NCBI GenBank assembly: GCA_026770705.1
Contig: JANJGN010000052.1
Location: forward strand, 3,720,001-3,784,000
Direction: 5' to 3'
From: Isurus oxyrinchus
Taxonomy: Eukaryota
Length of the DNA stretch: 64,000 nucleotides
The notes beneath the pieces were generated by a model. It did not search any database, was not told where the DNA came from, and saw only the letters and a program-made list of their open reading frames with translations. This document shows, in pieces, positions 3,781-52,898 of the stretch (position 1 is its first letter; the number at the start of each line of letters is the position of its first letter). The position numbers were made by a program, and so were the translations under genes.

Positions 3781-3784
3781 CTCT

Positions 3785-14537: not shown

Positions 14538-14677
14538 TCAAACAGTCTGTCGACTTCCTTTCACTGTTTGTCTCTCCCAGACACAGACTCCAGCGATAGT
14601 GATAACCACAGCCACAAGGAATATCACAGCTCGTATTCCCAGGATCAGGATCACGTGCAGAATCTCTCCTCCACTGT
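14538..14677 (-). pseudogene. Siglec-like gene L (pseudogene): TM/cytoplasmic exon, itself intact
   Basis: Acceptor tgttctctag; (D)SGGEILHVILILGIRAVIFLVAVVITIAGVCVWERQTVKGSRQTV*. Confidence 0.85.
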
Positions 14678-16822
14678 CTAGAGAACACACAGAAAGAAAT
14701 CATCACTGACTCTCCGCTTTCAATCTCTCACTCTGGCTGAACAATCAAGCTTCATATCACTGCAACATTTGCTGTAATATTGACCCATCCACTGGGATTC
14801 AATGTGGAATGAATGTTTTCATTGTAAACACTCTAAGAGTGGACAATCGGAACTTTCCCCTTAGCGTGGAACATTGGTGAGAATGGATCATTGTGCTGTT
14901 GGACTCCCTGTCCAATGTTTCTCTCCATCGCTGTGTACAGGATTGTGCTGTAGAAAATTCTGGAAACGTTTAGTGCAGGGTAGAAATCCATCTCGGACGC
15001 GTGTGCGAATCGGGCAAGATCGAGATGGACTCCCCCATGGACTTACACCCCCCGCTTAATAAACAGGTCCAATCTTTACCCAGAGAGAGGGGAGAATGTG
15101 GAACTCGCTCCCACAGGGAGTGGTCGAGGTGAACAGTATCGATGTATTTAAGGGGCAGGAGGGTCGGTAACCAGAGGGACACAGATTGACGAACCGGAGG
15201 GGGAGATGAGGAGAATTTGTTTTGACAGAGCGAGTTGTTGTGATCTGGAAGGTGCTGCCTGAAAACGCGGTGGAAGCAGATTCAATAGGAACTTTCAAAA
15301 GAGAAATTGGATAAACACTTGAAGGAGGAAGATGGGGGCAAAGTGGAGTGGTGGTTAGTGGATCTGATGGGATAGAACATTGAAAGACCTGGCACAGGCT
15401 CAATGGGCTGAATGGCCTCCTCCTGTGCTGTATCATTCTCCGTTTCCATGATCTCTCCCCCAGTCAGTAACCACTCCAGATCCCTCTTGAAGGTGACAGA
15501 GAGACAGCAACCACCACACCCACTGACAGCACATTCTCAAGGATCCCTACTCTCTGGGAAAAGATGAACTCCCCAACATCCAGCCTATTCCTGCTTCCCG
15601 GAGAGTGTAAACACTTCAGGGAGGCGCTGAGGGAGTTTTCAATAAAATGACATCAAATCCACCGTTTGAGAAATAATTGAATTCCGATGAACTCACAGCT
15701 TGTGTAGCAAACTGGGAAGTGGAGTTGCTGGGAAAGCTGGGAAACACAAGGATGAAGGGCTACAATGCCACCACTGGTGGGAGGCTGTAACTACAGCGTG
15801 ACGTTTACATAGGCAGTCATCATTATAAACAGGGGCATTGCACATAATGGGAATTATGTGCACGGAAATAGTGAGAACATTATGTAAGCTTTTCACCAGC
15901 AGGAATTCTCTTCCTAAACCTCTCCAACTCTCTCTTACTCTCAGATACACAAAGAAAATCACACAGAATCAGATAAGGAAGAATTAGGTTGGTGATTCGT
16001 CAAAGGGTTAGGTTTCAGGAAGCTTCTTAAAAGGAGAGAGAGAGTTGGAGACGCAGAGAGTATCTGTGAGAGCCTCTATGCATCTGAGTGTCTGTAATAG
16101 TAATTTCCATATTCTTCCATAAATATGAATGGGAACACAAATCCCAGAATTCAGGCCAACTCTCCAGTGCAGTACTGAGGGAGGTCAGGTAACCCATGAG
16201 GGAGTGAGTGTTAGTGTTTGTGTGTGTGTGTGTCTTTGTGTGTGGTCATATATGTGTGTCTGCACGTGTCTATTTAGGTGTGTATGTTCGATGGTGTTTG
16301 TGTAGTGTTCAAATCTGAGAGAGATGTTGAAGTCTGTGTAACTCACGTTCCACACTGATGGTTATGAACCCATCCACTGCTCCATGTTCATTCTCTGCCA
16401 CACACTGATAGTCTCCAGTGTCCCTGGATGTAACATGAGGAATCACCAACCACAGCTCATTGTTGGAACTTGTTCTGTTCATTTGGACATTCAGATGTCA
16501 TGGCAGGAATCAAGAAGCCCGTTCACAGGATTATCAACAGAAAGTGAACAACAATTTATACTTAATGGGAAGAGAGTGCTGATTGGTTGGCAAGTGGACT
16601 CTGATAGGTGGAGGTGTTGCCATGGAGAATGGTGTGTGCGAGATGTAAAGTTTAGACAGCTTGTCTCTTCATTCAGCAATAATCAAATAAAGATCAATTA
16701 AATTCTATCGACTTTGAAGCACTTAGAGAGGCCTTAGAATGTGGATACTGAGAACGGGCTGCACTGTCAGAGGGTCAGCGCTGAGGGAGTGCTGATGTAG
16801 AATGAAAGGTGTATGTAATTAC

Positions 16823-17119
16823 CTTGCACTGTTAGTACGAGGGTCCGCTCCGATGAAACAGATGGATAGCTCACTCGGCAGCTGAGAGTGTGTCCGTGGT
16901 GTTTGAGTGATGGGATCAGGGTCAGAACAGAAGTATAGGTCAGAGTGACACCATGCTGAGTTACAGTGTTTGAGACTGATCCAGGTACGTCAGTGGGAGT
17001 GTCCCAGGTTAAGACAGGTGCTGCTGTTCCATTGCACGTTGTGTTGAAGGTGCAGCTTACATCCACACGCTTTCCTGCAATAATTTCAGCAGGGAATATC
17101 GTGGGTTTATCTGTGAAAT
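16823..17119 (-). pseudogene. Siglec-like gene L: C2-set Ig exon (297 nt, open)
   Basis: ctgttag|ATTTCACAGAT...; DFTDKPTIFPAEII...VSCTFNTTCNGTAAPVLTW...LSCRVSYP...LTVQ G|gtaatt; phase 1/1. Confidence 0.9.
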
Positions 17120-17977
17120 CTAACAGACAGAGAATGGATCCTTTTAGAGAAATATAATGTGAAGCATCAGTTCAAATAGAAATCACAGTCCCACAAGAGA
17201 AAGCACTTTGACAAGGATGATATCAGAACTGAGAGGTTACAATGATCAGGAAAGATTTTCTTGCTCTTTGGCAGTAGTGTTTCTGTCTCTCAGCTTAATA
17301 CACGTTCACTCCGAGACATGTGAATTGAGAATACTGAATGAGAGAAGAGGCTCAGTCCAGAGATTGGAGTTAAAAGCAGAATACTGCGGATGCTGGAAAT
17401 CTGAAACAAAAACAAAAATTGCTGGAAAGACTCAACAGGTCTGACAGTATCAGTGGAGAGGAAGACAGGGTTAACGTTTCGAGTCCGTATGACTCTTCAT
17501 CAGACCAGAGGTTTGAGTTCACTGGCTTCTCATTTCCTCAGTGATCTGGGTGATTTATTACATTGTGGTTTGTTGGATCTTGCTGTGCACAAACTGACTG
17601 CTGTGTTTTACATCTGTGACTACAATTCAGGAATAATTTCATTGGCTGTGAAGGGATTTGGATCCTCCTGAGGTGGTAAATTGCGCTGCAGAAATGCACA
17701 TCTTTCTTTTATCGATACGTCAGACTTTTAAACAGGACAGGAGAGATTGATGGGTGTGGTAACCTGAGAATACAGTTAATGCTTTTCATCATTGATATTA
17801 AAGTGAGTATTAGAGGTTGCTTTAGGACTGAACTGGAAGCTATCACCAGGTTATTGAGAATCAGATAGCAAGTTATAATAAGCTGTGTTTTGTGTTAATA
17901 TGTAAACGTCACAGTTTGTGTTATTTCCCATTGAGTGTTGAATGTGAATTGTTGAGTAATTATAACACAGCACTTAC

Positions 17978-18354
17978 CAGAAACGTGAAGCTGGGTTACA
18001 GGATAGTAGCTTTAACTATTCCTGCTGTCAAATTCTATTCTGAAAAAAATAAGGTCCTGCATCTTTCCGTCTGATGTTGTTTATAATCAGGGAACAGTCG
18101 CCATTTTTCAGGTCTCCAGACAGCCGGGTACGATGGCGGAATCTTTGATCCCTGTGACTGTGACCCTCGGAGTGAAAGGCTATAGACCATTTAGGCTGTA
18201 GGGTTCCCATCTATTCCTGTCAACCAGATTCCGACACGTGATCTCCCTACGAAATGTGATGATTAACTGTCATGACATGGAATCTGTACACAGGAACCTT
18301 CCTGCGCTGCCACCTCTCGTGGAGTGTCGCCTTTCCACTCTTGTGACAGTCCAA
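17978..18354 (-). pseudogene. Siglec-like gene L: V-set exon, disabled
   Basis: 377 nt. VGLSQEWKGDTPREVAAQEGSCVQIPCHDS* (TAA 18263-18265), two +1 frameshifts (one in the T-run of PYFFR) and a second TAA. Splice sites retained. Confidence 0.92.
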
Positions 18355-19056
18355 CTGGGGAGAGAAATATCAATATTTAACTCTGGAAGGTTTGTAGATC
18401 CACTAGACTCGATATCCACCCCCTCCATCACTGGGGCACAGTGGCTGCAGTGTGGACCATCTACAGGACACACATGGAACTCCCCAAGGTTTCACAATGG
18501 ATGGAAGAGAATCCTGGACACAGGAGTGGACAAGTTCATTCTACATTGGCTCATGGTCCTCAGGACCCTGTTTAGTGAAGCCAGTCTTCCACCCAACACA
18601 GTGTCTACAAGATACACAGAGAAACTGTGTAAACATCTCATCTCTCTAAACTGACTGGCTTGGCTTCGGTTTAACTTTCAGTATTTTTAAATTTCCATAT
18701 TGTGGTTGCTATGGTGAAACTGTGCAGGAAGAGTGAGGGCTGGACTCTCTGTCTATTCTCACTGCAGCTGTGATGTGGCCGTGGTGATTGTCAGTAAAAT
18801 GAAACCCTCTGATCTCCTCCATCCCTGAGGTTTAGGGAGTGAATTCCAGAGCTCAGGCCCCAGGCAGCTGAAGGCACGGCCGCCAGTATTGGATTGATGG
18901 GAATCGGGGGATGGTCAAGAGGCCGGAATTGCAGTAACACAGAGATCTGGGAAGTTGTTTGGTTGAGTTGCAGGAGGTTTCAGAGATTAAGAGATAAGAA
19001 TGATCTTTTACAAAGACTGTTAAACATAATTCTGTCTGAGCTGATGATGATATTAC

Positions 19057-19135
19057 CTTGGGAAAGTGACAAGAGGAAGTAGATTTCCCGATCATCGTCC
19101 ACTCCCAGATATTCCATCCACTTCTCACTCTCAAG
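19057..19135 (-). pseudogene. Siglec-like gene L: leader exon with 1-nt deletion
   Basis: ATG at 19095; coding part 39 nt versus 40 nt in the intact copy (TCCTAC to TCTAC), so the leader is frameshifted. Confidence 0.88.
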
Positions 19136-19544
19136 CTGTGAAAGAGAAAGGAGTTAATGAGACGTCACCTCTTGTCCGAATGCTCTCGAGAGATCAGAAC
19201 TGCTTTTAGACAATGTCTTCACAGACTAATTTGATTCTCTGTGGGATGATAGGTGCTCTGCAGAGAGTTACAAGGCTTTAAGAAAGAAGAACATTGAAGG
19301 ATTTGCATTTCTATAGCACCTTTCACCACCTCAAGACGCTCATGTTTTGAGATCTTGGTGAACTGTTAACCGTTTGTGTCCTGACCCTGTGGTGATATTT
19401 CTGCTCAGAGGTGGACAGTCATTGACCAGGAGTTTCTCCTGTGGGTCAGTGGGTTTCACAGCCAAATTCAGGGGCTCTGAACATTGTGGGATTCAAGACC
19501 CCATTCAGGGGACGTCTGCCCCACAGAGTAGACTGAAACTCCCC

Positions 19545-19830
19545 AGTGTCAGTACTGAGCAAGTGCTGCACTGTCGGATGGTCATTACTGAGCAAGTGTT
19601 GTACTATTGTAAGGTCAGTACTGAGGGGGATCTCCACTGTTGGAGGGTCAGTACTGAGGGAGTGCTGCACTGTCAGAGGGACATTTATCAGGGAGTGCTG
19701 CACTGTTGGAGGGTCAGTACTGAGGGAGTACTGCACTGTCAGAGGGACATTAATCAGGGAGTGCTGCACTGTTAGAGGATCAGTACTGAGGGAGTGCCGC
19801 ACTGTTGAAGGGTCAGTATTAAGGTGCTGA
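19545..19830 (+). repeat. 33-bp minisatellite
   Basis: Tandem cagtactgagggagtgctgcactgt units. Confidence 0.9.
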
Positions 19831-19902
19831 TTTAGAAGACAGGACAATGTGTTAGGAGCCCTCAGAACTTCCCCCGTGATTTCCAATCGATCCGTTACTT
19901 AC

Positions 19903-19970
19903 CCAGGACCTGTCTGACTGCTTGCCTGGGGAGGAACTGCCCACACGCTCTGCTTGGGCTGAATGGGCCT
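19903..19970 (-). other. Paralogous non-coding first-exon remnant of the Siglec-like family
   Basis: Reverse complement matches 30815-30900, including donor cctgg|gtaagt; upstream it runs directly into the 43-44-bp minisatellite. Confidence 0.6.
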
Positions 19971-21990
19971 CCTCCTGTTCCTGTGTAACAGGCTTGATGG
20001 GGCTGAATGGGCCTCCTCCTATTCCTGTGTAACAGGCTTGAGGGGGCTGAATGGGCCTCCTCCTGTTCCTGTGTTATAGGCTCGAGGGGCTGAGTGGGCC
20101 TCCTCCTGTTCCTGTGTAAAAGGCTAAAGGGGCTGAATTGGCCTTCCCCAGTTCCTGTGTACCAGGCTCGAGTACATTAGGAGCATCATTGGGAGCAGCA
20201 TTTCACTTGCACTTCCCTCAATTTAATCTACTGCCTTCACTGCTCCCAATGTGGTCTCCTCTACATGGGACAGACCAAACACAGACTGGGTGATCGCTCT
20301 GATGAACACCTTCGGTCTGTCCACAAGCATGACCCAGACCTCCCTGTCACTTGCCATTTTAACACCCCACCCTGCTCTCATGCCCACATGTCCGTCCTTG
20401 GCCTGCTGCATTGTTCCAGTGAAGCCCAACACAAACTGGAGGAACAGCACCTCATCTTCCGACCTGGCACTTTACAGCCTTCCCGACTGAATATTGAGTT
20501 CAACACTTTCAGATCATGAACTCTCTCCTCCATCCCCACCCCCTTTCCAATCTCCCTTTTTCCAATAATTTATCATTTTTAATATTTTTTTTTATTTATA
20601 TATTTTTCTTTTCCCACCTATTTCCATTATTTTTAAATGTTTTACATCTGTTGTTGTATCTCTACCTTTTAGCCGATTTCAATCCTTTCCCCCCACCCCA
20701 CCCCCACTAGGACTATCTGTCTCTTGCTCGTCCTGCTTTCTACCCTTAATGTCCCCATTAGCACATTCCTCAGATAATATCACCACCGTCAACACCCCTT
20801 TGTCCTTTTGTCTATCACATCTTTGGCAACCTCTTCTTTACCTCCACCTATCACTGGCCCACAATCCAGCTCTACCTGTCCCACCCCCTCTACCAGCTAA
20901 AACGTCACCTCATTTCTCGATTCCCTTAGTTCTGATGAAGAGTCATACAGACCCAAAACGTCAAGTGTGTTCCTCTCCGCAGATCCTGTCAGACCTGCTG
21001 AGTTTTTCCAGCTATTTTTGTTTTTGCTCCTGTTCTTGTGGAACAGGCTTGAGTGGCTGAATGGAGCCCCTAAAGTTCCTGTGTAACAAGCTTGTGGAGG
21101 CTGAATGGGTCTCCTGTACCTGTGAAACAGGCTCAAGGGGACAGAATGGGCCTCCTCCTGTTCCTGTGTAACAGGCTCGAGGAGGGTGAATGGGCCTCCT
21201 CCTCTTCCTGTGTAACAGGCTCGAGGGGACAGAATGGGCCTCCTCCTGTTCCTGTGTAACAGGCTCGAGGGGGCTGAATGGGCCTCCTCCTCTTCCTGTG
21301 TAACAGGCTCAAGGGGCTGAATGGGTTTCCTATTCCTGTGTAAGAGGGTTGAGAGACTGAATGTGCTCTTCCTGTTCCTGGATAACAGGCTAATGTGACT
21401 GAATGGCCTCCTCTTGTTCCTGTGTTACAGGCTCTATGGGGCTGAATAGGACTCCTCCTTTTCCTGTGTAACAGGCTCGAGGGGCTGAGAGTCTCTCCTG
21501 TTCCTGTTGAAGGGTGTTGAGAGACTGAATGGCCTCTTCCTGTTCCTGTGTAATAGGCTCATGAGGCTGATGGGCCTTCTCCTGTTCCTGTGTAACAGGC
21601 TCAGGTGCTGAATGGGCCTCCTGCTGTTCCTGTGTAACAGGCCCAAGGAGGCTGAATGGGCCTCCTCCTGTTCCTGTGTAACAGGCTCAGGTGCTGAATG
21701 TCCTCCTCTCATTAAAAATAAATACTGCAGATGCTGTAAATCTGAAATAAAAACAGAAAATGCTGCATTAACTCAGCAGGTCTGGCAGCAGCTGTGGAGA
21801 GAGAAACAGAGTTTTTGCTTATAGACTCTGAAGAAGGGTCATACGGACTCGAAATGATTATTCTGTTTATCTCTGCACAGATGCTGCCAGACCTACTCAG
21901 TTTCTCCAGCATTTTCTGTTTTTATTTCAGGTGCTCTCTTGTTCCTGTGTAGCAGGCTCGAGGGGGCTGAATGACCTCCTCCTGTTCCTA
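19955..21990 (+). repeat. 43-44-bp minisatellite derived from a LINE/SINE 3' tail, interrupted by Penelope pieces
   Basis: ggggctgaatgggcctcctcctgttcctgtgtaacaggctcga units; matches the CR1 tail at ~1065-1105. Confidence 0.9.
20195..21025 (+). mobile_element. Penelope-like element 3' fragment (GIY-YIG endonuclease plus terminal repeat)
   Basis: NLIYC..CSQCGLLYMGQTKHRLGDR..EHLRSV...PVTCHFN...LEEQHLIFRPGTLQP.RLN. Confidence 0.9.
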
Positions 21991-22989
21991 TTCAATGGGC
22001 AGTCAAAACATGTGTCTGATTTTGGACATCGAACCCAATTCTGTCCTCAGGACACTGATAGAGGGAGAGACCAGATACAGATCAATGCAGGAGGATTATT
22101 TATTTTCCCAATCTTTGATCCAAGTATCTCATCAAACACAGAGCGGAATACTGATCAAGGATGTTGGTCTCTGTAATCTGTAACACATCGCACAGTCCAC
22201 CCATCCACTCAGCCTTCAGGATGGATGCTCATTGTACTCTCCAAGTGTGAAGGACTAAAATTGTGGTTTATTGCAGCTCTGTCTCATTCTGTTATCAAAG
22301 CTGTCTCATCCATCCATGACATATTGAAGAAGATAAACCTGCAACCAAATTTTCACATCATAATTTCCAATGTTCATTGGCTATATCAATGTAAACATGT
22401 CACGTTGTACTGATGAACTCCCATCATTGGTGGCACTGTAGCACATGTTATCTTCTAAGCTGCAGAGAATTTCTCAAATCTTCAATCAAATTGTATCCCA
22501 GATTGTTGTTCGTTTCGCTGTTTAACAATGAAGTGTAAAATCCAAATATATTTCTGAAAATACAGTTGACTACAAAATGGTGTAAATTTTACCAATCTCC
22601 TCTGTTCCAATTATCCACCGATCCTGCATTTCCTGAAGTCTGCACTGGCTGATGAATATTCTAAACACTGACAGACAGGCTGAGTGGCCTCTTTCTGTGC
22701 TGTTTGATTCTGTGGTTTTCTAATATTTATCTGCGCTGCAGATCAGAGACAAACAGGAAACAATAAACTTCTGACCTTTCCACACAGGCTGAATTGTCAT
22801 CTCTTTATTTTCAGCCAGTTTGCTTAATTCTTGTGGTTTGGTGGTGAAACTGTGCAGCAAGTGTGAGTGTTGGGTTGTAGATCTGTCTATTCTGACTGCT
22901 GCTGTGCTCATGGTGACTTCTCAATTACATGAGAGTCTCTGAGATCCTCCACACCCAAGGATTAAGGAGAGACTTCCAAAGATTCAGGA

Positions 22990-24470
22990 CCCTGTACTGA
23001 AGAGGTGCTGCACTGTCAGAGGGTCAGTACTGAGGGAGTGCTGCAGTGTCAGAGGGTCAGTACTGAGGGAGTGCTGCACTGTCAGAGGGTCAGTACTGAG
23101 GGAGTGCTGCACTGTCAGAGGGTCAGTACTGAGGGAGTGCTGCACTGTCAGAGGGTCAGTACTGAGGGAGTGCTGCACTGTCAGAGGGTCAGTACTGAGG
23201 GAGTGCTGCACTGTCAGAGGGTCAGTACTGAGGGAGTGCTGCACTGTCAGAGGGTCAGTACTGAGGGAGTGCTGCACTGTCAGAGGGTCAGTACTGAGGG
23301 AGTGCTGCACTGTCAGAGGGTCAGTACTGAGGGAGTGCTGCACTGTCAGAGGGTCAGTACTGAGGGAGTGCTGCACTGTCAGAGGGTCAGTACTGAAGGA
23401 GTGCTGCACTGTCAGAGGGTCAGTACTGAGGGAGTGCTGCACTGTCAGAGGGTCAGTACTGAAGCAATGCTGCACTGTCAGAGGGTCAGTACTGAGGGAG
23501 TGCTGCACTGTCAGAGGGTCAGTACTGAGGGAGTGCTGTACTATCGGTGGGTCAGTACTGAGGGAGTGCTGCACTGCCAGAAGTTCAGTACTGAGGGAGT
23601 GTTGCACTATCGGTGGGTCAGTACTGAGGGAGTGCTGCACTGTCAGAGGGTCAGTACTGAGGGAGTGCTGCACAGTAAGAGGGTCAGTACTGAAGAGGTG
23701 CTGCACTGTCAGAGCGTCAGTACTGAAGCAATGCTGCACTGTCAGAGGGTCAGTATTGAGGGAGTGCTGCACTGTAAGAGGGTCAGTACTGAGGGAGTGC
23801 TGCACAGTAAGAGGGTCAGAATTGAGGGAGTGCTGCACTGTCAATGGTCAGTACTGAGGGAGTGCTGCACTGTCAGAGGGTCAGTACTGAGGGAGTGATG
23901 CACTGTCAGAGGGTCAGAAGTGAGGGAGTGCTGCACTATCATAGGGTCAGTACTGAGTGAGTGCTGCACTGTCAGAGAGTCAGTACTGAGGGAGTGCTGC
24001 ACTGTCAGTGAGTCAGTATTGAGGGAGTGCTGCACTGTCAGAGGGTCAGTATTGAGGGAGTGCTGCACTGCCAGAAGTTCAGTACTGAGGGAGTGCTGCA
24101 CTGTCAGTGAGTCAGTATTGAGGCAGTGCTGCACTGTCAGAGAGTCAGTACTGAGGGATTGCTTCACTATCGGTGGGTCAGAACTCAAGGAGTGCTGCAC
24201 TGTCAGTGAGTCAGTATTGAGGGAGTGCTGCACTGTCAGAGGGTCAGTACTGAGGGAGTGCTGCACTGCCAGAAGTTCAGTACTGAGGGAGTGCTGCACT
24301 GTCAGAGAGTCAGTATTGATGGAGTGCTGCACTGTCAGAGGGTCAGTACTGAGGGAGTGCTGCACTGCCAGAAGTTCAGTACTGATCGAGTGCTACACTG
24401 TCAGAGGGTCAGTACTGAGGGAGTGCTGAACTGTCAGAGGGTCAGTACTGAGGGAGTGCTGAACTGTGAA
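22990..24470 (+). repeat. Long, homogeneous 33-bp minisatellite (gagggagtgctgcactgtcagagggtcagtact)n
   Basis: ~45 units; produces 11-aa periodic spurious ORFs on both strands. Confidence 0.97.
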
Positions 24471-24557
24471 TCATTGGAATCTCTCTTTATAAAGTCACAA
24501 CATCAACAAAGGACAGTGTTGGTGGTGGAAGTGAATTCCAATCGTTCCGTTACTTAC

Positions 24558-24775
24558 ACAGGACCTGTCCGACTGCTCGCCTGGGGAGGAACTGCCCACA
24601 CACTCTGCTTGGGCTGAATGACCTCTTCCTGTGCTGCTCCCTCTGTGTATTTAATGAGAAAGGGTGGATGTGTCACTGTGAGACAAAGTGGGAGGTGGTT
24701 GCTGTCAAAGTATGAAAGCAAACTGTTAACCCTTGGAGTGCCAAGGCTGTGTCCGAATGTGATTAAACTTTTTCC
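24558..24775 (-). other. Second paralogous promoter / first-exon copy of the Siglec-like family
   Basis: Inverted homology to 30680-30965, including attaaatacacagagggagcagcacaggaagaggtcattcagccc and donor |gtaagtaacgg. Confidence 0.7.
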
Positions 24776-25520: not shown

Positions 25521-26596
25521 GACCAGTCCAAAGGATGTGTTTGATGCTGGGGTTAATGGCCTCCAACACAATCCTGTCCTCACATGATTAACTTAGTTAG
25601 TGACTGGTTACTGGTTAATGCAGGAGGATTATTTATTTTCCCAATCTTCTATCCATGTGTCTGGTTAGGATCTTTTCATCAAACACAGAGCAGAACCAGG
25701 ATCGAGGATGTTGGTGTCTGAAATCTGTAACACATCGCACAGTCCGCCCATTCACTCAGCCTTCAGGATGGGGGCTAATTGTTCTTTCAAAAACTGAAAG
25801 ACTGAAATGGTTGTAAGTTGTAGCTTTAGCTCATTCTGTTGTCAAAGCTGTTTCAGCCATCCAGGATACAGTGAAAAACGTACATTTGCAAGCAACTTTT
25901 CACATCATAGCTCCCTCTGTTCACAATGACATTGGCAACATCAATGTAAACATGTCACGCTGTAATGACATCCTCCCACCAGTGCTGACACTGTAGCACA
26001 CCTGTTTTCCTCTGTGTTGTCGGAAGTCTACCAATTCTCCAATCAAATTGTTTCCCTTTCCCAGTCTGCGATTAGTCTAATATTAAACAATAACTCATAA
26101 AATACACATGTTCTCTGAACATATGTTTGACTGCAAAATGGTGAATAAATTATAGGGATTTGCTCTGGTCCAATTATCCACCGATCCTGCATTTCCTGAA
26201 GTCTAAACTGGCTGATGAATATTCTGTAAACACTGGCAGACAGGAAGATGAATAACAGAATGAAAATTAACTCATAATCACGGACACGGGATTGAATTTG
26301 TCCGTTCTGTCCTGGTACATCATCGAACGATATCTAAAGACATTTACAATCAGAATGGAGAGAAGGATGTTTCCAACAGGGAGGGACAATTCTGAAGGAG
26401 GATGTTCGAATTGAAACCCACAGACAATCATCCTGGATAGATCATTCCGAAGAAATTCCATCAGATTGTAACAAGAGGTTTAAATCTATTTCCTGGGAGT
26501 GAGTTCCTGTGGATATTAGGAAGGTAAATTGGAGTTTTGAATGATTCTCCCATTCTGTATTCTCCCCACACTGTGTGTGTCTCATTCTTGCTCAGT

Positions 26597-26713
26597 TTAT
26601 AAATTCCCATAAACAGAATCCTCAGCAAATTCACAGTTTGCGTAAAGATCATCATCTGTATCAGGATTGACTCCGCGGTTAGATTTCATTTCCAGAACCT
26701 TTTCATCTTTCTT
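26597..26713 (-). CDS. Orphan terminal cytoplasmic-tail exon with two Tyr motifs
   Basis: Acceptor tttctgtttctattacag; phase 0 KKDEKVLEMKSNRGVNPDTDDDLYANCEFAEDSVYGNL*; AATAAA on the minus strand at 25632-25637. No upstream exons found. Confidence 0.65.
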   Translation of the reverse strand, partial: KKDEKVLEMKSNRGVNPDTDDDLYANCEFAEDSVYGNL

Positions 26714-26869
26714 CTGTAATAGAAACAGAAATGATCAGAGTGACAATCAGAGTGATCAGTGTTTAGTATTATTGATCCAAATCGAAAATTCCACCCACAA
26801 TACATACATTAATTATTGATACTGTTGGATGCTGCTCACGAGTTTGTTGGGACTTATGGATCCAGGCTT

Positions 26870-29800
26870 GTTTTGGAGAGGCTGAGTAGGTACAATAGAC
26901 CGAGTAGATCAGCAGACAGTTCTTAGATGAAACACATTCTGCTTATTTACAAAGGAACTCAGCAGCTACACTTGTGTGCTTTCAACTCAAGCCCTGTCTC
27001 CGCATTACAGGCTCTAACTAAAGGTGAACGACTACTGAGGTACCTGCGCCACTCGGCTGTTGGACACTGATATAAGAGTTAAACAGGGACTTCTATTAGT
27101 GAAAACCAAAGGTCAGCAGAATTCTCCAGGTGAACCTTGTGCACCATGGGGCTGACATCAGCAGAATTCTCCAGAAAGGCCTTGAAGATCACAAGGGATT
27201 AACTCGAGAAGAGACATAAATAGATGCTGAGGGTAAACAGATAAGGTAAAGGCAAACAGCACCAGGCTAGAACGAGATAAACAGTTCTTGCTTGGGTAAG
27301 GAGCAGATATGTACCTGGGACTGGGAACATCTGCTTATTATGTGATTATGTACTGACAAGATTTGAATTTAAATAACCCAATGTGTACGTGACTAACTCT
27401 GTGAACAAAAAAGATGGTTTCCCTGTAATGGGTAGAGTTCTGTTTTTAGCCAGGCCTGAGGTTGATTCTGAGAACACACCACAACACTGAGCTCATGTTA
27501 TCTTCCATTGTAACCTTCTTCTTAAAGGTATATCACACATCAGATTACCACCACCCTCCCCCTTTACTCAGAAATACATTTTACACTTACTTTTACCATT
27601 TTCTCAAAGTATCAGATGATTTACACAGATCAGTAATTTACAAATTCAGTCTTTCTGGGGGGTTTCCTTATGCGTCTGGAACGTCTCAGATCCACAGCTT
27701 CAGATGCTTTGTCAGGAGTCTCCTTTTCTGATGTTGTCCCAACACCAGCTTCTTCGGTGGACACCTGCAAACCTGTTTCCTCAACTCTTGCAGGTACAAC
27801 GGACCCTTCAGACACATCTGTTCTCAGCTGAGTTCTTTCAACAGGAGACATAGACGCAGCCGTGAAGACTGGTGGGATTGTTTCTTGGTACTTTGTTTCT
27901 CTCCTCCTTATATGACCCACATGTCTCCATATGACTCGGTCTTCCACTTTCACATGGTGAGAAAGAGTTCCAATCGCTGCATTTATTTCACCCGGTGACC
28001 ACTTTGGCCCCTCTCTAAAATCCTTCACATATACCGTCTCTCCTACGGTCAGCTTCCTGTCATGGCTATGCCAGTCATGTCCAGTTTCCTGTCTTCCTGG
28101 ACTCCTTTCCACCTTCCCGCTGACATTTAACATGACTGATGTTGCAAATGTGACGTGAGAAAAAACTTTTTCACACAACTAAGTTCTGGGCCTGGAATGC
28201 ACGGCCTGGAAGTGTTGTGGAGGCAGGTTCAATCGAGGCATTCAGGAGGGCATTAGATGGTTATTTGGATAGAGAAAAGGTGCAGGGGCATGGGGAAAGG
28301 CAGGGCAATGACACTAGGTCATGATGCTCATTTGGAGAGCTGGGACAGACACGATGGGCTGAATGGCCTCCTGCTGTGCCATTAAGACTCTGTGATCCTG
28401 CAGAGGAGACTCTGAAAGGCAAACCGGTTTATTGATACAACCCTTTGTGTGTATTAATTGTGACAAACTTCTGGGAGGCCTTCTCGAACTCCAATTGTTG
28501 ATAAGCATGGCTCATATCAGCTCCGTGTAGGCCGTTCCAGTCAATTCTTGTCATCTCCACAAATTCAAACACTTTGGCCAGGCTCAGGTCCAGGGACTAT
28601 TGGTGCTGCCCATTCTGAGGACTGCACAGATTGTATCACTCCCAGTTTCTAGAACCTGCCCAATTCAGCATCTGCCTTTTCCCACATTGCATAAGGTACT
28701 GGCCGTGCCTTCATAAATCAGAGGGGTAGAGTCTGGATCCACATGAATTTTTGCTTGCAGCCCCTGGATCTCCCCGAGTTCATCTTGGAAAACTGAGATG
28801 TATTTTTGTAGTAGCTCAGGTAGCCCACTGGCTCTCAGTTGGAAGATCTCAGACCAATCCAGTTTAATATCTTTCAGCCAGTTTCGTCCAAGGAGGCTTG
28901 GTCCCTCACCAGCTCCCATCATCAAGGGTCATTTTACTGATTGACTTCCATACTGTATAACAACCCTGCTTATGTCTTTGGCTTGAATGTCTTCTCCCGT
29001 GTGAGTTTTCAATTAGTCATCTGTTTCTTCCAAATTTAATTGACTTTCCCCATGATTCCAGTATTTGAAAGTATGCTCCCCAATTAGCGTAATGTTAGCT
29101 CCTGTGTCCACCCCCATTCTGAGAGCTCTATCATTCACCCTCACTGTTACATAGATTGGCTCTGTTCTTCCTACCTTTAAATTATACAATGAATAACTAT
29201 CTGAATCTGTTACTTCAGGCTCTTCTATGTTATGGATCTCACAGGGTTTTCTCTCTTGGTTGAAACTCTGCCTGATTCTATCCTTGCAATCTCTCATGGG
29301 CTCTCTGTTTCGATGACAGTAAAAACAATTGATTTTTTTAAAGTTCCATTCACTACGAGGTTGTCTGCTTCACCTCTGTTCACATTATTCCATGTTTTCT
29401 CTGCTAAGTCATTCCTTTTTATTTGCTGCTAGTGGTGGAGGTTTCCCGTTTCTCATCAGAGCTGTACATTTTCCCGCACTTCTTGGCTGAGGCTCCTCAC
29501 CCAACATGAGGACGGTGACATTTTGCACTATCCATATGTTTTTCGAGTCCCTCACTGCTCTTTCCATAGCCAGCACTATTCCCAGCACCTTCTGAATATC
29601 CAAATCTGTTTCAGACAGTAATCTCTTCTGAATCGCATCTTCATTTATACTGCACACCAGTTGATCTCTCAGCATATTATTTATAGATTTACCAAACTCA
29701 CAATGTCCTATTAACTCTTTCAGACTTTCCACATAACATGCAGCTGCCTCCCCTGGGACTCTATTTCTTGAGTTAAATTTGGACCGTTGCATCGTTACCG

Positions 29801-30185
29801 AGGGCTGGGGCTGGGAAGGAATCTTCACAAGGTTCACTATATCATCTAAACTTTTTGAATCCATGGCACCGGGTGACATTAAAGTTCGCATCAATCCCTA
29901 AATCTTACTCCCACACGTGGATAAGAGGGTCGCTCGCCTCTTCTCCTCCCCATCAATGTCATTCACTTGGAAAAAGAACGCGAGGAGTTCACCATAATGA
30001 GACCAATCGCCCACCGTTGGGTCGAAAGGATCAACTCTTCCAAACTGCAGCATTCTTCGAGGGGACTGCTTCGGTTATTAGGATGGAAATTATATTTATA
30101 ATCGTTGCGTGAGGCACAGCCGGATTTCGGTTCCCTTGCTCTCATTCCTTGCTTTTTCTTCCTTGTTATTCACCTCATCGCCAGT
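26870..30185 (-). mobile_element. Decayed Gypsy LTR retrotransposon (gag-protease-integrase remnants)
   Basis: PBS-like TGGCGATGAGG 30172-30183; gag (HCEFG...MLRDQLVCSINEDAIQKRLL); protease VDTGA and SLLGRNWL; integrase C-terminus (VGETVYVKDF...KWSPG). Boundaries approximate. Confidence 0.88.
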
Positions 30186-30214: not shown

Positions 30215-30510
30215 GCACTCCCTCGGTACTGAGCCTGCGACAGTGCAGCATTCCCTGGGTACGGACCCTCCGACTGTGCAGTGGTCCCTTAGTCATGAGC
30301 CCCTGATAGTGCAGCAGCCCCTAAGTACTGATGCTCGAAAAGTGTAGCGCTCCCTCAGCATTGACCATCTGACAGTGCAGCACTCCTTCAGCACTGGCAC
30401 ACCCAGAGTGCAACACTCGCAGTACAGACCCTCCGACAGTGCAGCACTAAGTCAGTGCTGACCGTCCAACAGTGCAGCACTCCCTCAGCACTGACCCTCC
30501 GACTGTGCAG
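30215..30510 (-). repeat. 33-bp minisatellite, degenerate, reverse orientation
   Basis: gaccctccgacagtgcagcactccctcag units. Confidence 0.85.
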
Positions 30511-30599
30511 GACTCTCAGTCCTGACACCGAGTGCCGGTCTGAATTTTGCCAAATGAATTTCGAACTGACGACCTTCTCACTCAGAGAGAGAGAGGGTT

Positions 30600-30800
30600 C
30601 GAAATCCAGTGACACACAGGAGAAATTCCTGGTCAATGACTTTCCACTTTTGAGCAGAAATATCATCACAAGTCCAGAACGCAAAGGGTTAACAGCTTCA
30701 AAAAACTCAAAACACGAGCTGTTCTGTCACTTTGATCCAACTTCCTCATTTTGTCTCACAGAGACACATCAACCCTTTCTCATTAAATACACAGAGGGAG
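30600..30800 (+). promoter_or_regulatory. Candidate promoter of Siglec-like gene R
   Basis: PU.1/Ets consensus AAAATGAGGAAGT (minus strand, 30740-30752), kB-like GGAGAAATTCC 30619-30629, TATA-like TTAAATA ~30783; parts of the region are conserved in paralog copies. Confidence 0.5.
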
Positions 30801-30809
30801 CAGCACAGG

Positions 30810-30879
30810 AAGAGGTCATTCAGCCCAGGCAGAGCGTGTGGGCAGTTCCTCCCCAGGCGAGCAGTCGGACAGGTCCTGG
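30810..30879 (+). other. Siglec-like gene R: putative non-coding exon 1 (start approximate)
   Basis: Strong donor TGG|gtaagt at 30879/30880, conserved in three paralog copies, upstream of the leader-exon acceptor. Confidence 0.6.
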
Positions 30880-31329
30880 GTAAGTAATGGAACGATTGGA
30901 ATTCACTTCCACGACCAACACAGTCCTTTGTTGATGTTGTGACTTTATAAAGACAAATTCCAATGATTGATGCCTTTGAAAGATTTCTACTGATTATTGA
31001 GATCTGGGTGTGAGGCTCAAGTCTGTTGTACAGAACATCTTTCTAGCTCAAGGGATGAGGGAAGTGCAGGGACATGAGCTTTGGGACATCCTGAGGTGCT
31101 GAAATACGATATAGAAATGCAAGTCCTTCATTGATTTATTTTTTTAAAGCTTTTTAACTCTCTGCAGAGCACCTATCATCCCACAGAGAACCAAATTAGT
31201 CTGTGTAGACAATGTGTAAAAGCAGTTCTGATCTCTCGAGAGCTGTCGGACAAGAGGTGAGGTCTCATTAACTCCTTTCTCTTTCACAGTTTGAGAGTCA
31301 GAAGCTAAAGGAATATCTGGGAGTGGACA

Positions 31330-31369
31330 ATGATCGGGAAATCCTACTTCCTCCTGTCACTTCTCCAAG
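31330..31369 (+). CDS. Siglec-like gene R: leader exon (exon starts 31290)
   Basis: Acceptor ctttctctttcacag; MIGKSYFLLSLLQ G|gtaata, phase 1; joins in frame to every V exon (e.g. ...LLQ-VGLSQ). Confidence 0.88.
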
Positions 31370-39099: not shown

Positions 39100-39474
39100 T
39101 TGGACTATCACAAGTATGGAAAGGTTACACTCCAGGAGAGGTGACAGCGCAGGAAGGTTCGTGTGTACAGATTCCATGTAATTACAGTTATCCATCATAT
39201 TTAGTAGCGAGATCACCAGTCGGAATCTGGTATATGAGAAGGAATTGGGAAAAATGGAATGAACGGTCTATAGCCTTTCACTCCAAGGATCATAATCGCG
39301 AGTTACCACAGTTCCACCATCGGACCCAGCTGTCTGGAGACCTGAAAGATGGCGACTGTTCCCTGATTATAAACAACATCAGACGGGAAGATGCAGGATA
39401 TTATTTATTCAGCCTAGAATTTGACAACAGGAATAGATACAACGACCGTCCTGAAACCCAGCTTCACGTTTCTG
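39100..39474 (+). CDS. Siglec-like gene R: V-set exon V1 (375 nt; essential Arg replaced by Ser)
   Basis: ccctag|TTGGA...TCTG|gtaagt; EVTAQEGSCVQIPC...GIW...GDCSLIINNIRREDAGYYLFSLE; Siglec-type Cys pattern. Confidence 0.92.
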
Positions 39475-39689
39475 GTAAGTGCTGTGTTATAATTACTCAA
39501 CAATTCACATCCAACACTCAATGGGAAATAATAGTGTTTGATTTGCTTGTTTTTTGGCCGTGTTAACCAGCGCCACTATTTTTAATGATTTGTCTATTTC
39601 TGCTCCCAGATCCATAAGCTTATTGTGTGTGATTGAATCCACATCATAGCTGTAACATAAACCGAGCTGAGGGGTGATGACACCTCCCC

Positions 39690-41280
39690 CCTGAGTGAAG
39701 TATCTCCTCCCCACTACACCTTCCACCCCTCACACTGTCCGTGTAAACCCCCGTCCCATCTCCAGCCTCTCTTTCCCCTCCAAAGTCCTGCAACCTGTTT
39801 CCATCTCCCGAATCTGTTCCCATCTTTCCCGGAACTCCATGTTTGAATCCCTCCAATCAGGTTCCCACCCCAGCCACTGTGCTGAAACAGCTCTTATCAA
39901 GGTCACAAATGGCATCCTGTGTGACTGTGACAAAGGTCAACTTTCCCTCCTCGTCCTTCTCGATCTGTCTGCAGCCTTTGACACGCTCGACCACACCATC
40001 CTCCTCCAACACCTCTCCACTGTGGTCCAGCTGGGTGGGACTGCTCTCCCCTGGCTCCATTCTTATCCATCTCATCGTAGCCAGAGAATCACTTGCAATG
40101 GCTTTGCAGCATCATCTGAACAGTGTTAGTTTTCACCTGTCCACTGAGGATCCCCAGCTCTACCTCACCACCACCTCTCTCGACTCCTCCACTGCTGCTA
40201 AATTATCAGGCTGCTTATCCGACATCCAGTACTGGATGGGCAGAAATTCCCTCCAATTAAATATTGGAAAGACTGAAGCCATTGTCTTCATTCCCCGCTC
40301 CAAACTCTGTTCCCTCGCTACCAACTCCATTCCTCTCCCTGGCAGCTCTCTGAGATTGAAGCCAATCTGTTCACAGCTTTGTTGTCCCATTTGATCCTGA
40401 GATGAGCTTCCGGCCTCCTATCTGCGCCCTCACTAACACCGTCTATTTCCACCTCCGTAACATCGCACGACGTCACCCTGTCTCAGCTCATCTGCTGCTG
40501 AAACCCTCATCCACGCCTTCATTACCTCCAGTCTCGACTGTTCCAACACACGCTCTACACTCCATAAACTTGAGGCCATCCAAAACTGCTGACCACGTCC
40601 TTACTCACACCAAGTCCCGTTCCCTTATCACCCGCTCTGCTCGATGACCGAGACTGGCTCCTGGTCAAGCAAAATGTCAACGTCCAAATTTTCATCTTTG
40701 TTTCCTCACTATCCCTGTAATCTCCTTGTCCTCCTCCAGTACCTACAACCATCCCATTCTCTGTAACCTCTTCAAGCCTCTACCGCTTCCCTATATCTGT
40801 AAATTCATCCTGCCCAACAAACCTACCAATCTCTGCAACCTCCTCCAGCCACAACAAATCTCCCTATTTCTGTAACTTCCTCCTGCCCCTAAAAGCTTCC
40901 CTATCTCTGTAGCCTGCTCCAGTCCCGACAACTTTCCCTGCCCCTGTAACCTGCCCCAGTCACTACAACCCTCCCGACCTCTGCAAACTCCTCCAGATTC
41001 TACACTCTCCCAATCTCTCTTAACTTTTCCAGCCCCTACAAACCTCCCTATCACTATAACTCCTCCAATCACTACAAACCTCGCTATCTCTGTAACCTCC
41101 TCCAGCCCCTACAACCCTCCCTATCTCTGTAACCTCCTCCAGACCCACCAACCTTCAGAGGTCTCTGCGCTCCTCCAATTCCAGCCTCTTGACCATCCCC
41201 CGATCTCAACACTCTAACATCGGTGGCCATGCCTTCAGCTGCCTGGGGACCGAGCTCTGTAATACCCTCCCTTAAGCCCT
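39690..41280 (+). mobile_element. L2-type LINE 3' fragment with degenerate 37-bp repeats in its tail
   Basis: RPISSL, HCAETAL, LLDLSAAFDTLDH, LQLNIGKTEAI; degenerate minisatellite at 40710-41160. Confidence 0.88.
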
Positions 41281-42019
41281 CTCCATCCCTCACACTCACT
41301 CTCTCTCTCTCACTAACCATTTCATCCCTCTTTTAATTTTCTCCATAACACCGACCTCTTCTGGTCAGCTGTCGCTAATATCTACACGTGTCTGGGTGAC
41401 ATACTTTGTTTTATGACGCTCCTGTGTAGCACCTTAGGGTGATTTGTCATGTTCAAGTTGTTGTGAAAATATAAGTTGTTGCCCTTTGACCCTCGACCCC
41501 AGATTGAGTCTTATTTTTGAGGGAATGTACAACCTGCTTAGATTTCTGACCAAAGTGTCATTTGATTATTTTTATTGAGCGAATGCCAAGCCCCGATACC
41601 GAGCGAGAGCCTCCTCATTTGCTGAGTTCAAGGTGATGAGTCAGCCCCTTAGTCCGTACAGGGGATTCTCCTCGGTAATGTACAGCCTTGTTTGTGTCTC
41701 TCCACAAGCGCATGAGGGATTTGTACAGAGGCTGCAGCGCTGGAGGGGGTCTGCACAGGGGTCCTGGCCTGTCCTGAGCTGGTTTTAGCAAGGACCACTC
41801 TGGCCTTGGCAGCTGAAAGCCAGCCATTGGACAGACAGGGCCTGTCACAAGGAGCCTGTTAGTCACTCCCCCCCGTGTCTCCTGTGCTCGGATCCAGACC
41901 ATGTTGGCTGGTGGATCTGGCTCAGGAAGGGTCCTCCCCATGGGACCCCCAGATGGAAGGTGGGTCGAGCGGGTCAGTCACTTGCATGTTTATTCTGCAG
42001 CTTTAATATTTTAAGAAGG

Positions 42020-42815
42020 TAAGAATGTAGGAACATAAGAAATAGGGACAGGAGCAGGCCATTCGGCCCCTCCAGCCTGCCCTCGCTGATCTGGTTGTGG
42101 CCTTAACTCCATTTTCCTGCCTGTCCCCCAAACCCTTGACTCCCTTGTCGATCAAAAACCTGCCTCACTCAGCCTTGAGTCTATTCAATGGCCCAGCCTC
42201 CACTGCTCTCTGGGGAAGAGAATTCCACAGGCTAGCGCCCCTCTGAGAGAGGAAATTCCTCCTCATCTCAGTCTTAAATGGGAGAGTCCTCATTCCGAAA
42301 CTGTGCTCCCTGGTTCTAGATTCCCCCACGAGGGGGAAACATCCTCCCAGCATCCACCCTGTCAAGCCCCCTCGGAATTGGATATGTTTCAATAAGGTCA
42401 CCCCTCATTCTTCTAAACTCCAATGGATACAGGCCCAACCTGCTCAACATTTCCTCACAGGACAAACCCTTTAATCCCAGGAATCAGCCCAGTGAAGCTT
42501 CTCTGAACTGCCTGTACACAATGATCCTGTTACAATCTCACTAACGCCCTGTGCAGCTGTTGCAAGACTTCCCTCCTTTTATACTCCATCCCTTTGCAAT
42601 AAAGGCCAACATTCCACTTGCCTTCCTCATTCCGTGGTGTTCCTGAATGCTGACTTTCTGTGATTCATGTACAAGGACACCCAGATCCCTCTGTACTGCA
42701 TTCTGCAGCCTGTCTCCATTTAAATAATATCCTGTTTTTCTATTCTTCCTGCCAAAATAATTTGTTGCCATTCTCCTCAGTATTGACCATCCCCCCAATT
42801 CAGCCTCATCTGTAA
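42020..42815 (-). mobile_element. CR1 LINE fragment, repeated in each tandem unit
   Basis: QRDLGVLVHES.K, KASGMLAFI, SRTREHS, EMRRNF.SQR..LWNSLP. Confidence 0.88.
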
Positions 42816-42876
42816 ATTTTGAGTCTAGTGGATCCACAAACCATCCAGAGATAAATATTGAGATTTCTCTCCCCAG

Positions 42877-43245
42877 TTGGACTGTCACAAGAGTGGAAAG
42901 GTGACACTCCACGAGAGGTGACAGCTCAGGAAGGTTCGTGTGTACAGATTCCATGTCATTACAGTTATCCATCGTGTCTGGAAAACCAACCGCGAGGTGG
43001 ACTCTGGTTTAATAATGAGAAACAGATTCCCTGGGCTCCCATTGCCTTTCACTCCAAGGATCACAGTCACGAGTTACCACGGTTCCGCCATCGGACCCGG
43101 CTGTCTGGAGACCTGAAAGATGGCGACTGTTCCCTGATTATAAACAACATCAGACGGGAAGATGCAGGACCTTATTTTTTCAGAATAGAATTTGACAATG
43201 GTCCGAGCCATAACTATTACCCTGTAACCCAGCTTCACGTTTCTG
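42877..43245 (+). CDS. Siglec-like gene R: V-set exon V2 (369 nt)
   Basis: ccccag|TTGGA...TCTG|gtaagt; DAGPYFFRIE with Arg codon at 43182-43184. Confidence 0.93.
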
Positions 43246-45181
43246 GTAAGTGCTGTGTTATAATTACTCAACAATTCACATTCAACACTCAATGGGAATT
43301 AACACAAACTGTGACGTTTACATATTAACACAAAACACAGTTTATTATAACACACTGTCTGATTCTCAATAACCTGGTGATAGCTTCCAGTTCAGTCCTA
43401 AAGCAATGTCTAATACTCACTTTAATATCAATGATTAAATGTGTTGACTGTGTCTATCAATGTTATCAGTTTATCCACTCCCATCAATCTCTCAAATCCT
43501 GTCTTGAAGTCTGACATATCGACAGAAGAAAGATTTACATTTCTACAGCGCCTTTCACCACCCTAGACTTCCCACCCTAAACCTCTCCCTCTCCCTCTTC
43601 CTCTCCCTCTCTCTCTCTCTCTCTCTGTCTCTTTCTCTCTGTCTCTCCATAACACCGACCTCTTCTGGTCAGCTGTCGCTAATATCTACACGTGTCTGGG
43701 TGACATACTTTGTTTTATGACGCTCCTGTGTAGCACCTTGAGGTGATTTGTCATGTTAAAGTTGTTGTGAAAATATAAGTTGTTGCCCTTTGACTCTCGA
43801 CCCCAGATCGAGTCTTATTTTTGAGGGAATGTACAACCTCCTTAGATTTCTGACCAAAATGTCATTTGATTATTTTTATTGAGCGAATGCCAAGCCCCGA
43901 TACCGAGCGAGAGCCTCCTCATTTGCCGAGTTTAGGGTGATGAGTCAGCCCCTTAGTCCGTAGAGGGGATTCTCCTCGGTAATGAGCAGCCTTGTTTGTG
44001 TCTCTCCACAAGCGCATGAGGGGTTTGTACAGAGGCTGCAGCGCTGGAGGGGGTCTGCACAGGGGTCCTGGCCTGTCCTGAGCCGGTTTTAGCAAGGACA
44101 ACTCTGGCCTTGGCAGCTGAAAGCCAGCCATTGGACAGACGGGGCCTGTCACAAGGAGCCTGTTAGTCACTCCCCCCCCGTGTCTCCTGTGCTCGGATCC
44201 AGACCATGTTGGCTGGTGGATCTGGCTCAGGAAGGGTCCTCCCCATGGGACCCCCAGATGGAAGGTGGGTCGAGCGGGTCAGTCACTTGCATGTTTATTC
44301 TGCAGCTTTAATATTTTAAGAAGGTAAGAATGTAGGAACATAAGAAATAGGGACAGGAGCAGGCCATTCGGCCCCTCCAGCCTGCTCTCACTGATCTGGT
44401 TGTGGCCTTAACTCCATTTTCCTGCCTGTCCCCCAAACCCTTGACTCTCTTGTCGATCAAAAACCTGCCTCACTCAGCCTTGAGTCTATTCAATGGCCCA
44501 GCCTCCACTGCTCTCTGGGGAAGAGAATTCCACAGGCTAGCGCCCCTCTGAGAGAGGAAATTCCTCCTCATCTCAGTCTTAAATGGGAGAGCCCTCATTC
44601 TGAAACTGTGCTCCCTGGTTCTAGATTCCCCCACGAGGGGGAAACATCCTCCCAGCATCCACCCTGTCAAGCCCCCTCGGAATTGGATATGTTTCAATAA
44701 GGTCACCCCTCATTCTTCTAAACTCCAATGGATACAGGCCCAACCTGCTCAACATTTCCTCACAGGACAAACCCTTTAATCCCAGGAATCAGCCCAGTGA
44801 AGCTTCTCTGAACTGCCTGTACACAATGATCCTGTTACAATCTCACTAACGCCCTGTGCAGCTGTTGCAAGACTTCCCTCCTTTTATACTCCATCCCTTT
44901 GCAATAAAGGCCAACATTCCACTTGCCTTCCTCATTCCGTGGTGTTCCTGAATGCTGACTTTCTGTGATTCATGTACAAGGACACCCAGATCCCTCTGTA
45001 CTGCATTCTGCAGCCTGTCTCCATTTAAATAATATCCTGTTTTTCTATTCTTCCTGCCAAAATAATTTGTTGCCATTCTCCTCAGTATTGACCATCCCCC
45101 CAATTCAGCCTCATCTGTAAATTTTGAGTCTAGTGGATCCACAAACCATCCAGAGATAAATATTGAGATTTCTCTCCCCAG

Positions 45182-52770: not shown

Positions 52771-52898
52771 ACAGTGGAGGAGAGATTCTGCACGTGATCC
52801 TGATCCTGGGAATACGAGCTGTGATATTCCTTGTGGCTGTGGTTATCACTATCGCTGGAGTCTGTGTCTGGGAGAGACAAACAGTGAAAGGAAGTTGA
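52771..52898 (+). CDS. Siglec-like gene R: TM plus short-tail terminal exon with intramembrane Arg
   Basis: Acceptor tttctttctgtgtgttctctag; phase 1 (D)SGGEILHVILILGIRAVIFLVAVVITIAGVCVWERQTVKGS*; Arg codon 52815-52817. Confidence 0.9.

What the first reader, a model, noticed from the sequence alone, without database searches (positions are those of the whole stretch)
26597..26713. Orphan cytoplasmic exon with tandem tyrosine motifs: remnant of a paired signalling partner?
Not in the ORF track. A good acceptor is followed by KKDEKVLEMKSNRGVNPDTDDDLYANCEFAEDSVYGNL*. SVYGNL fits the ITIM consensus (S/I/V/L)xYxx(I/V/L). Both tyrosines are YxN (Grb2-type), and the DxxYxxC-x7-YxxL spacing is ITAM-like. 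A ~960-nt putative 3'UTR leads to AATAAA. Upstream lie only a Gypsy element and the opposite-strand promoter, suggesting a receptor gene cut off by the inversion breakpoint.
Basis: partly seen in the sequence, partly recalled or inferred. Interest (0 to 1): 0.7.

Follow-up and report, generated by a model that had tools for sequence, protein, structure and literature searches.

The report
Severed tail exon of shark Siglec
This is the last exon of a shark immune-receptor gene present in about 135 copies; this copy, like about 37 others, has been cut off from the rest of its gene next to a retrotransposon remnant and is likely dead, while intact copies make a receptor whose tyrosine tail likely docks Grb2-type adaptors.

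Summary
The exon is real and lies on the minus strand (26713-26597). It is not a separate signalling partner. It is the terminal cytoplasmic exon of a Siglec-like receptor (V-set, C2 domains, uncharged membrane anchor, three tail exons) with about 135 genomic copies. Of 40 copies examined, 26 follow their membrane exon, 12 (this one included) share one junction with a Gypsy remnant and an inverted neighbour gene, and 2 are joined out of frame to another receptor. Public contigs splice it to the upstream tail exons by GT-AG. The same tail ends annotated Siglec-like proteins of nine sharks and probably a ray. Conserved are two YxN tyrosines 11 residues apart; a strict ITIM holds in 7 of 19 and an ITAM-type first motif in 0 of 19. 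This copy is most likely a pseudogene fragment amplified with its block. Side findings: skipping one tail exon shifts the frame and removes all tyrosines (CEACAM1-L/S-like), and the same exon also serves as a 5' untranslated exon. The scan had already noted this genome's paired Siglecs on other DNA, not this tail. Interest is modest.

The parts
26597..26713 (-). Terminal cytoplasmic exon (phase 0, 38 codons and stop) of a type-B Siglec-like receptor; severed copy
26714..26824 (-). Remnant of the last intron: acceptor, pyrimidine tract, last unit of the 24-bp intron minisatellite; cryptic donor GT at 26807-26806
25632..26596 (-). Putative 3' UTR up to AATAAA at 25637
   Evidence: proximal part covered by contigs; the poly(A) site was not tested
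26825..27553 (-). LTR-like segment after a polypurine tract; its end is the shared break junction. LTR identity is inferred from position only
27554..30183 (-). Broken Gypsy-type internal remains (gag-like, protease, pol pieces); no second terminal repeat found
   Evidence: (Asp_protease_2 E 6e-4, below cut-off)
30215..30528 (.). 33-bp satellite; other side of the rearranged interval, normal upstream context of the plus-strand gene
30795..30879 (+). 85-nt exon, here upstream of the leader; about 96% identical to the first coding tail exon (cytA) of intact type-B genes
31290..31369 (+). Leader exon of the plus-strand gene (ATG at 31330)
39114..52907 (+). Neighbour gene: five V exons, C2 exon, partial Ig exon, Arg-bearing membrane exon with a stop near its end
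14541..24690 (-). Next gene of the inverted block: cytA-like 5' exons, V exon with stops, C2 exon, partial Ig exon, Arg-bearing membrane exon

Best explanation
The segment is the last coding exon of a shark Siglec-like receptor, left without its upstream exons by a rearrangement beside a Gypsy remnant, and this copy is likely a non-functional fragment that spread as part of a duplicated block. Shown: in intact copies the order is leader, V, C2, zero or more further Ig exons, uncharged membrane exon, cytA (85 nt), cytB (105 nt), this exon, giving a 104-residue tail. Inferred history: a Gypsy-type element came to lie in the last intron; an inversion, or a deletion between inverted copies, joined it to the 5' end of an opposite-strand gene; the block was then copied about 37 times, with some exchange of exon sequence with intact copies. 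Inferred function of the intact tail (about 55%): Src-family kinases would phosphorylate the YxN tyrosines (one in cytB, two here), which would dock Grb2-family SH2 adaptors, with the terminal motif possibly also binding SHP-1/2 as in CD22. Skipping cytA shifts the frame and would give a short tail without tyrosines.
For: 139 candidates, 40 scored at 98-100%; 135 exact tail motifs, 105 membrane-exon motifs, 38 junction motifs of which 1 is a chance match elsewhere. 26 of 40 copies follow the membrane exon; 12 of 40 share the junction; 6 of 6 further junction copies have the same layout. Membrane-to-tail splice open in 21 of 25. GT-AG joints in public contigs: cytB to tail, cytA to cytB, membrane to cytA, membrane to cytB. 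Colinear inverted block. 17 of 107 V-domain homologues carry this tail at E <= 0.01. Top 17 of 28 PDB hits of the V exon are Siglecs. No in-frame ATG on the LTR side in 12 of 12 severed copies.
Against: All 18 severed copies examined keep an open frame, but at 2-3% divergence this says little (10 variants, 3 silent, 7 replacement, 0 stops, against 3, 9, 0 in 26 attached copies), and copies were chosen by similarity. One contig (run X3, depth 5) joins a cryptic donor at 26807 to the exon with 30 or more letters on each side, which would reach into the LTR-like DNA. Contigs of X1 cover the Gypsy remains at high identity. The severed copies fall into two groups on the exon tree (8 and 4), so a single origin rests on the shared junction. 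Copy counts may be inflated by assembly redundancy. No binding was tested.
Confidence: 0.87

Rival explanations
1. The severed copies are an expressed, LTR-driven unit that makes a tail-only RNA and a 30-residue tyrosine peptide from the ATG inside the exon, acting as a decoy for SH2 adaptors.
For: One X3 contig splices from the LTR side into the exon; its first exon base is the variant carried by 4 of 12 severed and 1 of 26 attached copies. About 37 copies are kept with acceptor, open frame and AATAAA.
Against: One contig, one run, depth 5; it is not the window's own allele; no in-frame ATG upstream; no sign of selection; all other listed loose ends at the exon start lead to cytB or to a membrane exon; a soluble peptide would lack a membrane anchor to bring it to kinases (inference).
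Confidence: 0.05
2. The exon belongs to a distinct adaptor-like or activating partner gene with an ITAM-like tail.
For: Y-to-Y spacing of 11 is fixed in 18 of 19 homologues and fits ITAM spacing; acidic residues precede both tyrosines; Arg-anchor activating-type genes flank the locus.
Against: In every resolved case it ends a Siglec-like receptor; 0 of 19 homologues have Leu or Ile at +3 of the first tyrosine.
Confidence: 0.03
3. The exon is reached by long-range splicing from a minus-strand gene further upstream.
For: Minus-strand Ig exons, a type-A membrane exon and a MAG-like V exon lie 41-60 kb upstream; two other copies are spliced to a foreign membrane exon over about 6.4-6.9 kb.
Against: No cytA, cytB or type-B membrane exon on the minus strand in 137 kb; membrane exons end in phase 2 and the exon is phase 0, so a direct join loses the tyrosines; the upstream type-A membrane exon has its own tail exons.
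Confidence: 0.03
4. The severed arrangement is an assembly artefact of a highly repetitive cluster.
For: The cluster lies on many short contigs with 97-99% identical blocks.
Against: The junction recurs at 37 places with distinct variants, internal deletions and both orientations; one contig of run X1 spans the Gypsy-satellite side (30181-30534).
Confidence: 0.02

Closest known systems
CD33-related Siglecs and their paired receptors, e.g. Siglec-11/16 (PMC5701461, passages read)
   Same: V-set plus C2 ectodomain with best PDB matches to Siglec-5, CD33, Siglec-8, MAG; tandem cluster with inhibitory-type and activating-type members, non-functional copies and sequence exchange.
   Different: Far larger cluster; a third tail type with tandem YxN rather than ITIM plus ITIM-like; the activating type has an Arg near the outer end of the anchor; about a quarter of the tail exons are severed.
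CD22 cytoplasmic tail (PMC3342095, passages read)
   Same: Siglec tail that combines ITIM tyrosines with a Grb2-recruiting tyrosine.
   Different: CD22 has three conventional ITIMs and one Grb2 site; here three YxN sites and at most one, poorly conserved, ITIM. No sequence homology to the CD22 tail was tested.
CEACAM1-L/S exon 7 switch (PMC11646291, passages read; PMC2490704, start of abstract in listing)
   Same: Skipping one small cytoplasmic exon yields a short tail lacking the tyrosine sites.
   Different: Unrelated Ig family; regulation shown for CEACAM1, only both splice forms seen here; here the switch exon has near-identical copies used as 5' untranslated exons.
Catfish IpLITR 1.1b (PMC4810170, passages read)
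   Same: Fish Ig receptor tail with a YxN Grb2 motif beside ITIMs and mixed outputs.
   Different: Different receptor family; tested biochemically, whereas this tail is untested.
NCBI-predicted shark 'sialic acid-binding Ig-like lectin 13' proteins, e.g. P0037 of Cetorhinus maximus
   Same: Same exon order and 84% identity over 37 residues of this exon.
   Different: Automatic annotation only; the window's copy has no upstream exons.

Membership tests
Siglec family (parent gene) | N-terminal V-set domain of Siglec type followed by C2-set domains | tested here: met
   Pfam V-set, Ig_CD22, C2-set_2; top 17 of 28 PDB hits are Siglecs, E 2e-14 to 5e-12
Siglec family (parent gene) | Conserved F-strand arginine (its sialic-acid role is recalled, not from a call) | tested here: met
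   YFFR aligned with Siglec-5 and CD33; present in 11 of 11 V exons printed
Siglec family (parent gene) | Binds sialic acid | not testable with these tools
   needs a glycan array
Siglec family (this copy) | Intact gene: ectodomain and membrane exons upstream on the same strand | tested here: not met
   none within 137 kb
ITIM receptors | S/I/V/L-x-Y-x-x-I/V/L (consensus from PMC4810170) | tested here: inconclusive
   met in all 40 genomic copies examined but in only 7 of 19 homologues
ITIM receptors | Phospho-dependent SHP-1/SHP-2/SHIP recruitment | not testable with these tools
   no assay
ITAM | Two YxxL/I motifs 6-8 residues apart (consensus recalled) | tested here: not met
   spacing fits, but first motif has L/I at +3 in 0 of 19
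Grb2-type docking tails | YxN motif (PMC4810170) | tested here: met
   first tyrosine YxN in 17 of 19; second in 19 of 19, where the search pattern required it and every sequence matched
Transposon-derived sequence | Dispersed copies independent of host genes | tested here: not met
   all 40 examined copies lie in the receptor cluster, 28 of them behind a membrane exon; no Pfam hit; no repeat library was available
Gypsy LTR retrotransposon (upstream DNA) | gag-protease-pol order, polypurine tract, two LTRs | tested here: inconclusive
   weak protease hit, polypurine tract, no second terminal repeat, junction-proximal 20-mer found only in the cluster

The most novel reading that the evidence does not exclude
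The roughly 37 severed tail copies are not debris but an LTR-driven unit that makes a tail-only RNA and a short tandem-YxN peptide, which would buffer signalling of a 100-member shark Siglec family that already switches its tyrosine tail on and off by skipping a recycled 5' exon.
Probability: 0.05. Interest if true: 0.7.

Novelty: new variant of a known kind. Interest (0 to 1): 0.3.

Why it matters
The severed exon itself is ordinary birth-and-death debris. It points to something less ordinary: a shark Siglec-like cluster with roughly 100 genes of a tail type built on tandem YxN motifs, conserved across nine shark species and probably a ray, beside classical ITIM-type and Arg-anchor activating types. 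If the tail docks Grb2-family adaptors and is toggled by a frame-shifting exon, sharks reached a CD22-like and CEACAM1-like control of Siglec output, and this is testable with a chimeric receptor. I found no paper on it in five searches, but the library lacks most subscription journals, and the proteins are already in NCBI's automatic annotation.

Tried and rejected
A direct protein search with the 38-residue peptide was not possible because of its length; the tail was compared locally with V-domain homologues, so receptors of other families ending in this tail would be missed. Pfam gave no family for the peptide. No run is on record as RNA ('no RNA holder listed'); runs X1-X6 are guessed RNA, kept as contigs, X1-X4 are one sample, tables were cut, and depths cannot rank genes or isoforms. 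X5 showed no joints. Selection test on severed versus attached exons was uninformative. The exon tree had unsettled bootstrap and did not make the severed copies one group once attached rows are counted. The C15 junction match is a chance 17-mer. The LTR end could not be confirmed outside the cluster. In some searches some query exons (cytA, cytB, membrane exons, one Ig exon) were cut in the wrong frame by a script offset; those rows were not used, except the off-frame cytA hits noted in passing, and the frames were read correctly. The script was flooded by satellite hits and cut. No structure or complex prediction was run, as phosphotyrosine binding cannot be modelled. Paper searches returned nothing; searches returned nothing relevant in the listings. 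No supplements were opened. Look-ups of earlier notes near this place, by sequence and by words were empty.

Full report
Observation. The ITIM match alone is common (180 hits in the window's six frames, 14 before a stop), while the double YxN pattern occurs once. The window is from a 4.98-Gb genome; its V exons are up to 88% identical to lamniform shark proteins, so a shark is inferred.

Copy number and gene. A DNA search gave 139 candidates; the 40 scored are 98-100% identical. Exact motifs count 135 tail exons and 105 matching membrane exons. In 264 kb around the window, two plus-strand copies end genes built as leader, V (Pfam V-set and Ig_CD22), C2-set_2, further Ig exons, an uncharged membrane exon and tail exons. 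I fetched about 9 kb upstream of all 40 scored copies. 26 of 40 follow the membrane exon (25 with both middle exons, one with a deletion), 12 of 40 have the window's arrangement, and 2 of 40 had neither. Splicing membrane exon, cytA, cytB and this exon in silico is open in 21 of 25 and gives a 104-residue tail; V and C2 exons were not checked throughout, and some carry stops, so intact genes are fewer.

Transcripts. No run is on record as RNA, but contigs of guessed-RNA runs show GT-AG joints at exactly the predicted ends: cytB to this exon and cytA to cytB (X2), membrane to cytB (X1, X2, one sample), membrane to cytA (X6, another organism). The family exon is therefore spliced; these contigs cannot be assigned to the window's copy.

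The break. Homology to intact copies stops at 26824, in the last unit of the intron's 24-bp minisatellite. Beyond lie an LTR-like segment, broken Gypsy-type coding remains, a 33-bp satellite and the 5' exons of a plus-strand gene. On the other side, 26824 down to 9574 is colinear, inverted, with the normal array downstream of intact tails. The two flanks of the element thus come from opposite orientations, which a plain insertion does not give; an inversion or a deletion between inverted copies is inferred. The junction recurs: 38 exact motifs, one a chance match on another contig; 37 with a second motif, all in cluster contigs; 39 of 40 scored matches of the LTR-like segment at 98% or more. 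Six more such copies had the same layout. The exon sequences of 12 severed copies fall in two groups among attached ones, which suggests exchange after the break, on a weak tree.

Is the severed copy used? All 18 severed copies examined keep the frame, but variant counts do not differ from attached copies and are too few to test selection. Laying four runs of one sample on 26400-31500 showed exon starts joined to cytB or to another membrane exon, and one X3 contig (depth 5) joining a cryptic donor at 26807 to the exon, with at least 30 letters on the upstream side, which would include LTR-like DNA. Its first exon base is a variant of 4 of 12 severed and 1 of 26 attached copies, not the window's. 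There is no in-frame ATG upstream. I read this as leaky read-through.

What the tail is. 17 of 107 homologues found with a V exon carry this tail; two more were added by eye and alignment, covering nine shark species and one ray. Across these 19, the tyrosines are 11 apart in 18, the first is YxN in 17, the second in all, a strict ITIM holds in 7, and an ITAM-type first motif in none. cytB is a paralogue of this exon with a third YxN. The cluster also holds genes with a classical Siglec tail (LLYANI ... TEYAQI) behind a second uncharged anchor, and genes with an Arg-bearing anchor and short tail, two of them flanking this exon. By the motif rules in PMC4810170 (passages) and the CD22 precedent in PMC3342095 (passages), Grb2-family docking with possible SHP binding at the last tyrosine is the likeliest mechanism; it is untested.

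Splice switch and recycled exon. cytA is 85 nt; skipping it shifts the frame and gives a 34-residue tail with no tyrosine, the stop 8 nt before the last junction, in 21 of 25 copies. That position would escape nonsense-mediated decay by the recalled 50-nt rule. Both forms are in contigs. This resembles CEACAM1 exon 7 (PMC11646291, passages); regulation is not shown. Near-identical cytA copies also stand before leader exons, and contigs of X1, X3 and X4 join them to the leader.

Comparison and verdict. The parent is Siglec-like by fold, best hits and conserved arginine; sialic-acid binding is untested. Paired Siglecs with non-functional copies and gene conversion are known in primates (PMC5701461, passages), and earlier notes of this scan describe paired Siglecs elsewhere in this genome. 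Five searches found no paper on shark Siglec tails (listings only). The finding is a real but most likely dead exon; the tail type it exposes is a new variant of a known kind. Interest 0.3.

Noticed in passing
L043:2287-9429 and L044:2813-9446 (G000:C150, C121): Two copies of the tail exon lie 6.4-6.9 kb behind the membrane exon of a different, MAG-like Siglec gene; contigs of X2 and X3 join them, in a frame that gives a short basic tail without tyrosines. Exon capture between subfamilies.
   Followed up: partly
window 30795-30879; also 24519-24650 and 19903-19968: The 85-nt first tail exon also stands before leader exons and is spliced to them; an off-frame match near the N-terminus of a sevengill shark protein (P0085, residues 21-46) hints that this double use is old.
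   Followed up: partly
window 31367 to 30793: Contigs of X1, X2 and X4 join the leader end back to the start of the 85-nt exon: tandem 5' exon pairs in other copies, or a circular RNA.
   Followed up: no
window 3046-13976 and 53175-64000: Large inverted duplication at 96% identity whose arms flank the whole locus.
   Followed up: partly
window 41277-50473: 2.3-kb tandem unit repeated four times, giving five V exons in a row before one C2 exon.
   Followed up: no
window 31500-38700: About 7 kb of further repeat and retroelement remains between leader and first V exon of the plus-strand gene; also present in the copy near window coordinate -38000.
   Followed up: no
L026-L027 and L039-L040: Type-A genes with 8 to 11 near-identical membrane-proximal Ig exons in tandem: variable stalk length.
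   Followed up: no
L091, L092 (G000:C34, about 15.13-15.18 Mb): Diverged type-B genes lacking cytB on a 20-Mb contig, with altered first tyrosine motif; may anchor the cluster for synteny.
   Followed up: no
window 21709-22679: Second, partial copy of the distal 3' UTR region, closer to intact copies (94%) than the UTR next to the exon.
   Followed up: no
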